Source of the DNA: Octopus vulgaris
Taxonomy: Eukaryota
Direction of reading: 5' to 3'
DNA: 64,000 nt
NCBI GenBank assembly: GCA_951406725.2
Contig: OX597816.1
Coordinates: forward strand, 139,562,001-139,626,000
Shown: one piece after another, positions 12,884 to 64,000 of the stretch
How positions within the stretch are numbered: the first letter of the stretch is position 1
Layout of the letters: each line of letters starts with the position of its first letter
Position numbers and translations under genes: made by a program
Notes under the pieces: model-generated
What the model was told of the DNA's origin: nothing
Databases searched by the model: none
The model's input: the letters and a program-made list of their open reading frames with translations, nothing else

Positions 12884-14214
<1,331 letters not shown>

Positions 14215-24236: not shown

Positions 24237-24454
24237 AATTATTAGCGACGGAAGTAGTCTTAATACCAAAAGCTAATATTTATATCCAAGATCGTCTTTA
24301 CGACCTCTGTATGTGCTTTTATGCACCAAGCGCCTTTATAAGAGGATCTCTCAAGGCTAATAACGCAGGATTCGGTGTTCTAACACGACATCCATGTTAA
24401 ATTGGATGTAAAAATTATCTTTTGGTATTAATACTGCTTCCGTCGCTAATAATT
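24237..24454. mobile_element. MITE with about 53-bp TIRs
   Basis: AATTATTAGCGACGGAAG...ATCCAA and TTGGAT...CTTCCGTCGCTAATAATT; diverged partial copy at 24662-24757. Confidence 0.75.
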
Positions 24455-26137
24455 AATTTTTAATAAGCCTGCTGGCTATTTGCTACATCAGCGTGTGGAA
24501 AGATACTGACATTTTATGTATCGTAGCAGCGAGAACTGACTTGCATGCTGTCACCCCGTTGCTTTCCACTGATGAGTTCCAGTAGTCCGAAATCACGTGA
24601 TATGGAAATTCTAGTGTCCTTGACACAGGATTCTCCTTTGTAACGTCTGTGTTTTTAAGCATCAAGCGCTGATATGAGACAATCTCTCAAGGCTGATAAC
24701 GCAGTTTCGCTGTTCTAACAAAGCATCGATATTTTGTTGGATATAAACATTATCTTTCGATAAATAAATGCATAGATGATACATTTATGAGAACGTTAAG
24801 AGAAGGATAAATAATGGTCCACATTTAAAAATTATTTTACTTGTTCCACTCATAGAATTGCACCCAAAGTAGAGCACTATTTTGATGGTGTTAGTCGAGC
24901 AAATCGTCCATAGGATGTATTCCTTTCAAGTTCGGTGCTTATTATATCCAACTCTTTTGCCGAAATGCTACGTTTCGGTGAGTAAAGAAATCAAAGCCCG
25001 TTGTCATAAAACCAAGTCACTACATATAAGCACATACATGGACGTATACATACACACACGTGCGCAGGCACGCACGCACACACACACACATGCGCATGCA
25101 CGCACATGCGCGCGCGAGCACACACACACGCATATATATATATATATATATACATAAATGTCGAAGAATGAGACCGAGACTCAACACCGCATTGGTAGAT
25201 AAAATTTCTTTACTTGTGCATTAAGGCTACCGTTGGTTTCATGTTAAGAAAACTATTTTAATATCTTAACAAATTTTCAAGCCGATCACATGGCGGAATG
25301 GTCTTCATTGCTATTTTAGAGACGAACCCAAAACCTCTCTTGATACAAATCGAACTTTACAGCAACACAACCATTACTACACCTAATTCGTAGCTCCAAA
25401 TAGTTGGCAACTGTAAATGTAACATACAGCAATATTTACCCTTACTTTGGCTTTCAACAGCTTATGAAGTCATAAGGGCGCCATCGTGACATACGTTTTA
25501 TCACAGGTTTCTTAAATTTGGCGGAGCCCTTCCCTCTCTAAGTCTAATTGAAGTCGAATTCCTCCAGATAGAAAGAATGAGTGAGGCAGAACAAGCAACC
25601 CCAGTACCGAACTGACAATTTATTTCTCAATGTTAAAAGGATGAAAGGCAATGTCGACCTAAGAAAGATTTTAAATTATGTCGTAGAGAGTCAGTGCAAA
25701 TACCGCAAGACGTTCTAGCTATGTTTAAACGACTCGAGCAATTTGCTGTCTACGGGGCAATATACTTGTACACTTTATATCACTAGTAAGAACGTCATCT
25801 GTCTAGTTAAAAGTCATGTACCAACTACATATATCTATCAATAAGAATATTATATGTTCTTTGAAATGGGTCGCTGCACTCCATCTCCGTCTCCCCCGTT
25901 TCTTCTCCTGCCCCCAATTGAGATACGTTTCTGTTTCGGTTCCCAAAATCCGCAATAAACACTCCGCTGAGTAATTTCTACTTACCCAGTGGCTGAAAGC
26001 ACTCGATCATCACCACCCACATCTTTATTCAACTGTCAACCTACATTTGTTCAAGCGAAACATTGTAATTGTGTGTGTATGTATGTATGTATGTATGTAT
26101 GTATGTATGTATGTATGTATGTATGTATGTATGTATG

Positions 26138-48010: not shown

Positions 48011-48895
48011 AACCTTCTTTATTGGCCACACAGGGCTGCACACAGATGGGACAAGTTACAAGGTAGAGCTTTTCTTTTGGGAGATGAAAAAAAAAACAAA
48101 AGAAACAAAAAATAAAGGTGGCGTAGGTTTTCGATCAAAAGGGGTCGTAAAAGGGAAAAAGAACAAAAAAAAAAAAATAGAATAAAATAAAAAAAAAGAA
48201 GAAAAGGAAAAGGAACAAAAGAAAAGAGAAATGAAAAAGGAGATAAAAGGGGGAAAAGGGGAAGAGGAAAAAAAAACGATCAATAGGGATCGTGTATCAC
48301 AGTGTTATGATATATGGTGTAAAGGGGAAAGCAAGTAAGGTTTATCCGTGGGAAGAAAAGCCTACGAAAAAGACCACGGTAACCTTGGTCAATATTGTTA
48401 TATGTTACCACATTTGTTTGCAAGTGGGTAACCCTCTGTTTTCAATTTCTGGGTTGATAGGATTATGCTCAAGGTGGCTTCGTCATTCATACGTGCCATC
48501 CTTGCTACATTCACCCATCTTTTTTTTAAACTAGACAAAACTTGCCTCTCTACTCTCACTTTCCTTTTCAAGTGGTACTTGAAGAAGTTGATGAGAGATT
48601 GACCAGAGAGGAAAGTGTTTGTCTCCAATCCTTTCAGACGCGTCCACCAGATACATTCTTTCGCCATAGCCACAAGGATGATGAAAATAGCTCTTCCTTC
48701 CCGTTTGAAGGAGGGAGGCGTGACAATATTGACGATAGACTCAGCTGATAAACCGACTCGTCCCACACGTGACAGCAGTTGTTCGACACAAGCCCACAGG
48801 TCGGAAATTGTTGGACACTGCACGAGTGCGTGCAGAACGGTTTCGTCGCTCTGACCGCATCTCGGGCAGGTCGGCCCCGTGTTTCTCGAGCCGTA
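48011..48895 (-). mobile_element. 5'-truncated L1/Tx1-clade LINE (ORF2 C-terminus and 3' UTR)
   Basis: Minus frame TCPRCGQSDETVLHALVQCP (CCHC zinc knuckle, 48868-48815), then LW..AKECIWWTR..KRW; 3' UTR ends AATAAAGAAGGTT directly into (ATCT/GTCT)n. Confidence 0.8.
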
Positions 48896-48900
48896 TGATT

Positions 48901-56955: not shown

Positions 56956-57519
56956 ACATGCTGAATTTTTAGACATGTCTATATATATATGTATATATAT
57001 GCATGTATGCATGCATGTATGTATGCATGTATGTATGTATGTATGTATGTATGTATGTATGTATGTATGTATGTATGTATGTATGTATGTATGTATGTAT
57101 GTATGTATGTATGTATGTACGTATGTATGTATGTATGTTTGTATGTATATACATACATTTAACGTATACCGTATACAGTTATTCCACATTTTGCACCCAC
57201 CTTCTCTGTTTCTCATAATTTCTATTGTTCTCTTTCCTGATTTGTAACTAGTGTTGGCCATGTGTTTGGAGCTTAACATTGCTTGGAGACCCTAGGCGTG
57301 ATATTAAAAGCTGCCAAGAAAGCATCTCCAACTATTAGTACCTCACAACTAAATACTGTGTACATTATGTAATATATATACATACATATATGCATACACA
57401 CACATGTATGTATATATATATATATACACGTGAATTACTCGTGACTCGTGAATTTCATTACAAACAACATGGACCAAATTTCTTCTTAAAAAAAATATAT
57501 ATTCATATAAGTTAAACAT

Positions 57520-57556
57520 TATATCATGAATAGCGATTGCGAAACCGGTCGATATA
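57520..57556 (+). ncRNA. minimal type I hammerhead with A3-U8 core
   Basis: TATATC-ATGAATA-GC GATT GC-GAA-ACCGGT-C-GATATA; element 57425-57670 between (TA)n runs. Confidence 0.62.
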
Positions 57557-57665
57557 TTAAAAATTATATTATAACCATGAAAGTGTGCGTATTTTCCTTT
57601 TTTAATTTCTTATATACGTTACAATCCACCACGTGGGGACAACCGAAATTCTTCTTTTCTGTTAC

Positions 57666-57736
<71 letters not shown>

Positions 57737-57880
57737 ATATAAATGGAACAAAAACACAATAGAGGACAGGCAAAAAACGATGGGTCATTGGTGGCTTTCT
57801 TTCCTCAGTCAAGTACCAGAAGTCACGACCATTTCGGGCAGTTACGCTTGAGATGCTTTGATACATACATGCATACACAC

Positions 57881-63040: not shown

Positions 63041-64000
63041 AGAACCATGTCTCATGAGGCTTGTTTCTTGAAAAAAAACGTTGTCCATGCCTACTCCATG
63101 TAGTCAACTGATAATCTAGAAATAGTAGCAAACATCAGGCAAAGACGGTTGTGACTATCTGGTTACTGCGTGCCCCACCCTAAAATGGAAGTGTGGGACC
63201 TATTTCATGGTGATGTAAGAAGAGGAAAACGGCAACTTTTTTCTATTTTATAAGGGTAATAATACCCAATCTTTCTACTGTTTTCACGGCTATACTACGT
63301 TCGAAATATTACCTTGTCTGTATAATACAATAAGCATTCGACGCTTCTAAAAGACAAAATAGAAGTTTGCTTACATATGTTGCTGTTGTTGCGTATAACA
63401 AAATGTTTATTTCCTCATTTTGCTAAAGTTTTCTGCAAGATTCCTTAAATTAATAAATAGCATTCATGAATCGATCCAGTTCACTATAGAAATGAATGAA
63501 AGAAAACTCCCTTTTCTGGGTATTCTAATAATTAAAGAAAATGTAACAGTGACTGCCGATCTCTAATGCAAAGACACAGACACATAGCAACATTTAGACT
63601 TTAGATCTGGCCACCCTTCCCCTAGAAAAAGAAACATACTATTCAATATTGCATGGTATACATACTCAATAGTCACTGAGCCCAATAGATGAGAGAAACG
63701 ACTGGTAGAACTGAATATATTCCTTAAAAAACAAATACTCACAAAAGGCTGATAACTCATGCCATAAGCAAAGCCAAAGAAATCCCGGCCTTTGCCTTAC
63801 GGAGAAACACTTACGCTGAGAGTGAAAATAAAAATACAAATATAAATATTCTATTTGTAGCGATCCGTAATGCGAGGAACCACAACATCCTACTTTCATC
63901 CAAGCGACAGCTCCCAATTCTACATCAATCATCAAGTCTCCGACAAATAATTGAAAAGTTGCAAATCATCAACAGCCGAGAACAATCGCCAACGCTCAAG

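What the first reader, a model, noticed from the sequence alone, without database searches (positions are those of the whole stretch)
57520..57556. Hammerhead with an A3-U8 swap of the core C3-G8 pair
Seen: core reads AUGAAUA rather than CUGANGA, yet positions 3 and 8 stay complementary. Stem I is 6 bp, stem III is the palindrome ACCGGU, the triplet is GUC, and stem II is only 2-3 bp. Established: 3 and 8 form a Watson-Crick pair in the active fold. Inference: the double change points to selection, and standard CUGANGA searches would miss this variant.
Basis: partly seen in the sequence, partly recalled or inferred. Interest (0 to 1): 0.74.

Follow-up and report, generated by a model that had tools for sequence, protein, structure and literature searches.

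The report
Penelope hammerhead with flipped core pair
This is the tail end of a Penelope-type jumping gene whose family, with hundreds of copies, carries a tiny hammerhead-ribozyme motif with an A-U pair where C-G is usual; related families use U-A or G-C, so the pairing is likely kept by selection, but RNA cutting is untested.

Summary
Window 57520-57556 is a minimal type I hammerhead motif with A3/U8. It lies in a 224-nt, 5'-truncated 3' end (57444-57667) of a Neptune-like Penelope retrotransposon with RT and GIY-YIG domains, beside (TA)n. A3-U8 is the family state: 477 exact-pattern copies, and 97 of the first 100 listed. A relaxed pattern with 3 and 8 left free gives 5,557 genome hits against 28 controls; of the first 100, 68 are U3-A8, 24 A3-U8, 1 G3-C8, 5 U3-G8, 2 unpaired and none C3-G8. 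An endonuclease tree needs at least three double switches, all ending paired, so A3-U8 probably flipped from U3-A8 rather than from C3-G8. Rfam misses the motif even at E<=10. Cleavage is not shown: one deep-mutagenesis study rescued only G3-C8, and copy ends do not pile up at the cut. The core AUG is not the ORF1 start. This copy is probably inert. Natural U3-A8 is published; I found no paper on natural A3-U8, but several key papers were unavailable. This scan already noted the same variant twice in this genome and once in another. Verdict: new variant of a known kind.

The parts
57444..57667 (+). 5'-truncated 3' end (pseudo-LTR plus tail) of a Neptune-like Penelope-like element, family A
   Evidence: 93-97% identical to dispersed copies. 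Longer copies continue upstream into GIY-YIG and RT. 4 private changes and 1 polymorphic site in 224 nt.
57520..57525 (+). Hammerhead stem I, 5' strand
   Evidence: 6 of 6 Watson-Crick pairs with 57551-57556. All 6 pairs show two-sided changes across families.
57526..57532 (+). Core positions 3-9, with A3 (57526) and U8 (57531); A3-U4-G5 also reads AUG
   Evidence: In full-length copies the AUG opens an 18-codon upstream frame, not ORF1.
57533..57540 (+). Stem II: 2 bp (G10.1-C11.1 and C-G) with a 4-nt loop that varies among subfamilies
57541..57544 (+). Core G12 A13 A14 A15.1
   Evidence: Invariant in 12 of 12 aligned representatives, which were retrieved with patterns that require it
57544..57549 (+). 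Palindromic stem III (ACCGGU), predicted to pair between two molecules
   Evidence: Self-duplex -8.3 kcal/mol. Dimer fold -14.3 against a dimer minimum of -16.8; monomer fold +3.0 against -5.1.
57550..57551 (+). Predicted cleavage site, after C17 of GUC
   Evidence: Position inferred from hammerhead numbering; cleavage not shown
57551..57556 (+). Hammerhead stem I, 3' strand
   Evidence: Position 57555 is T/C polymorphic in the family; L034 and L060 carry the compensating G.
57617..57667 (+). Penelope 'tail' between two alternative 3' ends (inner end at about 57616-57619, outer end at about 57667)
   Evidence: Of 95 BLAST hits in fetched loci (some loci overlap), 27 end at the inner site and 57 within 3 nt of the outer site. 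Inverted partial copies end at the inner site.
57666..57741 (.). (TA)n microsatellite directly after the element, the likely insertion target
   Evidence: Most family copies abut (TA)n.

Best explanation
This is the minimal type I hammerhead motif in the pseudo-LTR of a Neptune-like Penelope retrotransposon family, whose master element carries an A3-U8 pair that is likely kept by selection and would let the element's RNA cut itself weakly after GUC, probably as a dimer or with help from the element's protein. Shown: the element anatomy (ORF1, RT with CX4CxxC linker and GIY-YIG, pseudo-LTR, tail, TA targets); the family-wide A3-U8 state; and paired alternative states in related families. Inferred: two RNA copies pair through the ACCGGU palindrome to build stem III; the 3-8 pair forms in the active fold; the clade tolerates any Watson-Crick pair there. 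The window copy is a 224-nt 5'-truncated insertion without ORFs and is probably inert.
For: (1) Element identity: (RVT_1 and GIY-YIG). (2) Family state: 30 of 30; 97 of the first 100 of 477. In contigs of four runs with organism labels A-D, no other letter reached 2% at 57526 or 57531 (the mapping itself favours like copies). (3) Covariation, with 3 and 8 left free in the pattern: 93 of the first 100 of 5,557 hits are Watson-Crick, 5 are U-G and 2 unpaired (hand tally). Family G is G3-C8 in 20 of 25 copies; family E is A3-U8 in 19 of 25. In 12 hand-picked representatives the 3-8 pair is 100% paired with three pair types, and all six stem I pairs covary (related rows, not independent events). 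(4) Tree of endonuclease residues 450-635 (41 of 42 rows, 100 bootstraps): A+A2 (A-U) group with B+C (U-A) at 95%; E (A-U) lies outside; G (G-C) is 100%; D/F/K (U-A) is 96%. This needs at least three double switches. (5) Position 17 is C, U or A in the family representatives seen; most were retrieved with patterns requiring H17, so this is weak. (6) For intact A, A2 and F representatives the dimer fold is within 0-2.5 kcal/mol of the minimum. (7) Papers: minimal Penelope hammerheads cleave weakly as dimers (PMC4209133). A lizard Penelope hammerhead cleaves only with its protein and tolerates a 3-8 swap to G3-C8 (PMC11167929).
Against: No cleavage data for this motif. In a complete double-mutant scan of one type III hammerhead, only the G3-C8 swap rescued activity (PMC9901934, passage read). 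5' ends of short copies do not pile up at the cut: among the dozen or so incidental copies that start near the motif, one starts 1 nt after the cut and one 3 nt before it, and the rest are scattered. Most copies span the site intact. Stem II is only 2 bp and no loop-loop tertiary contact is evident. The window's GAUU loop favours a competing hairpin over the GAAA core (pairing probability 0.5-0.76, against 0.17 or less for stem I). Sister families B and C carry an extra base in the GAAA/stem III region, which could mean relaxed catalysis. The root of the tree is not resolved, and A+A2 monophyly is only 55%.
Confidence: 0.65

Rival explanations
1. The motif is kept as a folded RNA signal (dimerisation, or a binding site for the RT-EN protein near the reverse-transcription start sites) but no longer cuts at a useful rate.
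For: A3-U8 was not rescued in one mutational scan (PMC9901934). Hammerhead mutants did not affect Penelope insertion in vitro (PMC11167929). No pile-up of copy ends at the cut. Sister families have core insertions.
Against: The 3-8 pair is a feature of the active conformation and is not seen in ground-state minimal structures (PMC3884650, introduction passage). It still covaries across families.
Confidence: 0.22
2. A3 and U8 are neutral changes in a dead ribozyme that hitchhiked with one successful master element, and their complementarity is luck.
For: Within family A all copies descend from one lineage, so 97 of 100 is one event. Single copies do decay to unpaired states: 12 of 13 non-U3 copies of families F/K keep A8. 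A chance double change occurs once (L281) and apparently again in L087.
Against: At least three family-level double switches, all paired, and no unpaired family state among about ten families; the only exception seen is U3-G8 in family F2. Stem I also covaries.
Confidence: 0.05
3. A3 was selected because A3-U4-G5 is a translation start codon, as in the lizard element whose ORF starts inside the hammerhead, and U8 followed as compensation.
For: In PAc the ORF begins at stem II (PMC11167929). A donor-like GTAAGT lies about 28 nt after the cut in family A.
Against: In full-length 5' junctions (L228, L244) this AUG opens an 18-22-codon frame that stops, and ORF1 starts at its own ATG about 150 nt downstream with no AG acceptor before it. 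Family B with U3 has the same layout, with ORF1 about 200 nt downstream.
Confidence: 0.08

Closest known systems
Minimal type I hammerheads in pseudo-LTRs of metazoan Penelope-like elements (Cervera and de la Pena 2014, PMC4209133; parts 1-2 of 4 of the main text and supplement parts 1-2 of 3 read)
   Same: Type I topology; short palindromic stem III implying dimer activity; location in the pseudo-LTR; mostly solitary 5'-truncated copies; a natural U3-A8 covariant in Schistosoma elements.
   Different: A3-U8, and G3-C8 in a related family. Every row of their Figure S3 alignment of representative hammerheads has C3 or U3, none A3 or G3. Stem II is 2 bp without the usual bulged base after A9.
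Natural hammerhead core variants (Perreault et al. 2011, PMC3088659; passages read)
   Same: 3-8 covariation in nature (U3-A8); stem II as short as 2 bp.
   Different: Only U3-A8 is named in the passages read; no purine at position 3.
PAc Poseidon element hammerhead of Anolis (Frangieh et al. 2024, PMC11167929; first half of the main text and passages read)
   Same: Two reverse-transcription starts giving a tail; AT-rich targets; hammerhead near the ORF start.
   Different: PAc has C3-G8 and its ORF starts in stem II. Here ORF1 starts about 150 nt downstream and the endonuclease has the Neptune-type zinc-finger linker.
Neptune clade of EN+ Penelope-like elements (as described in Craig et al. 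2021, PMC8557442; passages read)
   Same: C-terminal GIY-YIG with two internal cysteines, CX2-5CxxC linker, microsatellite bias, tandem and inverted pseudo-LTRs, tail, hammerhead.
   Different: A separate upstream ORF1 of 340-380 aa (their Figure 1 legend allows a frameshift-separated ORF1 in some types). Clade placement against Nematis was not tested with reference sequences.

Membership tests
Hammerhead ribozyme (type I, minimal) | Core U4 G5 A6 A9, G12 A13 A14, A15.1-U16.1 and H17 | tested here: met
Hammerhead ribozyme (type I, minimal) | Consensus C3 and G8 identities | tested here: not met
   A3 and U8. No Rfam hammerhead hit at E<=10.
Hammerhead ribozyme (type I, minimal) | Watson-Crick pair between positions 3 and 8 | tested here: met
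   Covariation A-U, U-A and G-C across families
Hammerhead ribozyme (type I, minimal) | Three helices around the core, with G10.1-C11.1 | tested here: met
   Stem I is 6 bp with covariation and stem II is 2 bp. Stem III is stable only between two molecules.
Hammerhead ribozyme (type I, minimal) | Site-specific self-cleavage after H17 | not testable with these tools
   No raw RNA reads were available. The copy-end test shows no pile-up in a small sample.
EN+ Penelope-like element | [quoted passage not shown] | tested here: met
   L061, 635 aa: RVT_1 E=1e-6 (28.9 bits, just under the 29.6 cut-off) and GIY-YIG E=2e-6. The same locus carries the A3-U8 motif downstream.
EN+ Penelope-like element | Pseudo-LTRs in tandem or inverted arrangement, 5' truncation, tail | tested here: met
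Neptune clade | CX2-5CxxC linker and CCHH motif; microsatellite targeting | tested here: met
   Motifs visible in the translations; (TA)n flanks
Neptune clade | RT phylogeny groups with reference Neptune elements rather than Nematis | not tested
   No reference sequences were fetched
Non-LTR retrozyme | Head-to-tail tandem monomers of 170-400 nt without ORF | tested here: not met
   The copy is solitary and belongs to an ORF-coding element

The most novel reading that the evidence does not exclude
A whole radiation of Penelope elements (thousands of copies, several related species labels) has abandoned C3-G8 and switches freely among U-A, A-U and G-C, because its own RT-EN protein chaperones the ribozyme. 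In the A3 families the cut would also remove the core-encoded upstream AUG and leave an uncapped RNA starting about 125 nt before ORF1, so cleavage would gate ORF1 translation. That would be a natural test bed for what Penelope hammerheads do.
Probability: 0.12. Interest if true: 0.75.

Novelty: new variant of a known kind. Interest (0 to 1): 0.5.

Why it matters
If these motifs cleave, nature uses all four Watson-Crick pairs at hammerhead positions 3 and 8, and searches built on CUGANGA or Rfam miss thousands of ribozymes per genome in some animals. Related families with U-A, A-U and G-C on the same minimal scaffold give a ready panel to test the open question of what Penelope hammerheads do, and whether the element's protein relaxes the core requirements. 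The step beyond the published natural U3-A8 is modest, and this scan had already noted the variant.

Tried and rejected
Rfam found nothing at gathering threshold in the window and no hammerhead at E<=10 on 57440-57670. Sequencing runs: no RNA holder listed; only contigs could be laid, so starts, ends and expression could not be read. Core AUG as ORF1 start: rejected. L087 first looked like a U3-A8 family, but 19 of its 25 best relatives are A3-U8, so it is an odd copy of family E. L281 looked like an A3-U8 subfamily of family K, but it is 1 of 13 non-U3 copies and the other 12 keep A8. Rooting with a distant C3-G8 family (L189, L190) rested on about 90 RT residues and gave 0.56 support, so I do not use it. 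Of 40 C3-G8 loci fetched, only 4 had any RT or EN match, and none was a close relative. IQ-TREE runs timed out; FastTree with 100 bootstraps was used. Four rows were dropped before (L178, L189, L190, L129) and one more for short coverage. The Atlas search for ORF1 gave only sub-0.9 leads. 20 of about 84 window ORFs were scanned with Pfam; no host gene was found. Literature: searches for hammerhead with A3-U8, A3U8, C3A, G8U, C3-G8, G3-C8, 'positions 3 and 8', 'purine at position 3' and octopus found no report of natural A3-U8. Not held: Przybilski and Hammann 2007, Nelson and Uhlenbeck 2008, Lunse 2017, Hammann 2012, Brill 2024. Any of these could already mention it. The Roberts 2023 supplement was listed but not read; Cervera supplement file 1 could not be searched.

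Full report
Observation. A relaxed descriptor hits once in the window and never in 300 shuffles. Rfam gives nothing at gathering threshold or at E<=10 on this stretch, but finds a canonical hammerhead at 24551-24625 with E=7e-4. The claim that standard searches miss this variant therefore holds for Rfam.

What it sits in. The window is G000:C3:139562001-139626000 of a 2.8-Gb, microsatellite-rich animal genome; octopus is my inference and also the earlier notes' guess. Window 57444-57667 matches dispersed copies at 93-97% (1,510 candidates, 40 scored). Longer copies run upstream into a reading frame with RT, a CX4CxxC linker and a GIY-YIG endonuclease with two internal cysteines (Pfam). Copies are 5'-truncated, often preceded by an inverted partial copy, and abut (TA)n. 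They end at two fixed sites about 50 nt apart (27 and 57 of 95 hits), which is the Penelope tail that Frangieh 2024 ties to two reverse-transcription starts. These features match Neptune-type elements as described in Craig 2021; formal clade placement was not tested. Full-length 5' junctions (L228, L244) show the hammerhead about 150 nt upstream of the ORF1 ATG; the younger family B has the same layout with long open frames. The window copy differs from its family at 4 private sites and 1 polymorphic site, none in the core. No host gene was found among the 20 window ORFs scanned.

Is A3-U8 the family state? Yes. 30 of 30 aligned copies have it. A pattern with N at 3 and 8 has 477 hits against 0 controls, and 97 of the first 100 listed are A3-U8, the other three being single mismatches. 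Loop II varies among subfamilies while the core does not. Contigs from four runs with four organism labels show no alternative letter at 2% or more at either position, with the caveat that mapping favours similar copies.

Is the pair under selection? One family is one event, so I looked across families. Excluding A3 and U8 gave 28 hits: 23 U3-A8, 2 G3-C8, 3 unpaired. A relaxed pattern leaving both positions free gave 5,557 hits against 28 controls; my hand tally of the first 100 is 68 U3-A8, 24 A3-U8, 1 G3-C8, 5 U3-G8, 2 unpaired, 0 C3-G8. That pattern requires G straight after A9, a CCGG stem III and no G at position 2.1, so it leaves out most canonical C3-G8 families, which are also plentiful (1,669 hits against 383 controls). 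Many of the non-canonical motifs lie downstream of related endonucleases. Family G is G3-C8 in 20 of 25 copies, six of which lie on one contig and look like duplicates; family E is A3-U8 in 19 of 25. In 12 hand-picked representatives the 3-8 pair and all six stem I pairs show two-sided changes, with a covariation score of 0.77 against 0.21 for shuffles and at most 0.18 for slid controls; the rows are related, so this is descriptive. A tree of endonuclease residues 450-635 puts A and A2 (A-U) with B and C (U-A) at 95%, with E (A-U), G (G-C, 100%) and D/F/K (U-A, 96%) outside. At least three double switches are needed, and either A-U or U-A arose twice. The root is unresolved. U3-A8 is the commonest state, and one decayed motif just past the window end, downstream of a more distant element, also reads U3-A8, so a flip from U-A to A-U is my preferred reading, not a shown one. 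After insertion, copies decay without regard to pairing: 12 of 13 non-U3 copies of families F and K keep A8. Selection therefore acts on master elements only.

Mechanism. The monomer fold is 8 kcal/mol above the minimum; the dimer fold with intermolecular stem III is within 2.5 kcal/mol, and within 0.2 for representatives with GAAA or GAUA loops. This fits the dimer model for Penelope hammerheads (Cervera 2014; review PMC6765202, passages read) and the protein-assisted cleavage seen for PAc (Frangieh 2024). Against robust activity: Roberts 2023 found only the G-C swap rescued in a type III hammerhead; this copy's GAUU loop favours a competing hairpin; and short copies do not start preferentially at the cut in a small, biased sample. 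From memory only, Przybilski and Hammann 2007 reported that any Watson-Crick 3-8 pair can be tolerated depending on context; Perreault 2011 cites that paper for activity of covarying pairs in vitro, but I could not read it. The AUG formed by A3-U4-G5 is not the ORF1 start; it opens an 18-codon frame in family A. Cleavage would remove it from the ORF1 message. That could matter given the report that self-cleavage can drive cap-independent translation (PMC13725137, abstract only), but this is speculation.

Comparison and novelty. It works like, and by position and fold belongs with, the minimal Penelope hammerheads, failing only the C3 and G8 identities. Natural U3-A8 is published (Perreault 2011; Cervera 2014, whose Figure S3 rows all have C3 or U3). 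Nine searches found no paper on natural A3-U8, but five directly relevant papers were not held. Earlier notes of this scan report the same variant in this genome (e1-9807048, e1-9866753) and in another genome (e1-9564841); I read them after reaching the same view (note). The 'thousands of G3-C8' in e1-9866753 was not reproduced by my pattern (1 of the first 100), which may be too narrow for those families.

Verdict. A real, family-level natural A3-U8 hammerhead variant within a Penelope radiation that keeps the 3-8 pair while changing its identity. Activity is untested and this copy is probably inert. New variant of a known kind; interest 0.5.

Noticed in passing
window 24563-24608 (+): Canonical C3-G8 type I hammerhead (Rfam HH9, E=7e-4). 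It lies between two 79%-identical stretches 336 nt apart (24309-24422 and 24645-24757), like a decayed retrozyme unit.
   Followed up: partly
window 63441-64000 (+), continuing in L211: Decayed RT-EN of a more distant Penelope family (41% and 28% identity to family A), with a decayed U3-A8 hammerhead-like motif about 480 nt past the window end.
   Followed up: partly
L065 1705-6118 (-); L066-L068: Young family B with long open frames (753 aa RT-EN, many near-identical hits) and a separate upstream ORF1 of 340-380 aa without Pfam family. Its U3-A8 hammerhead has an extra A in the GAAA/stem III region. Best candidate for an active element.
   Followed up: partly
L282:2978-3016 (+): Single A3-U8 motif with a perfect 6-bp stem I and flanks resembling the G3-C8 family G; possibly a third A3-U8 lineage.
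   Followed up: no
L283, L284: Small family F2 with a U3-G8 wobble, one copy with a long RT-EN match; a possible intermediate state.
   Followed up: no
L185 (G000:C1:20001500-20005500): Tandem array of about 359-nt units, each with a canonical C3-G8 hammerhead: a non-LTR retrozyme.
   Followed up: no
window 57429-57443: Short junction before the element made of repeated pieces of its own first bases, as expected from template jumps at 5' joining.
   Followed up: no
window 48401-48898 (-): Fragment of a LINE with a zf-RVT match (E=3e-4).
   Followed up: no
window 13000-13335 and 13899-14165: Two stretches with the same translated motif, suggesting a local duplication or repeat fragment.
   Followed up: no
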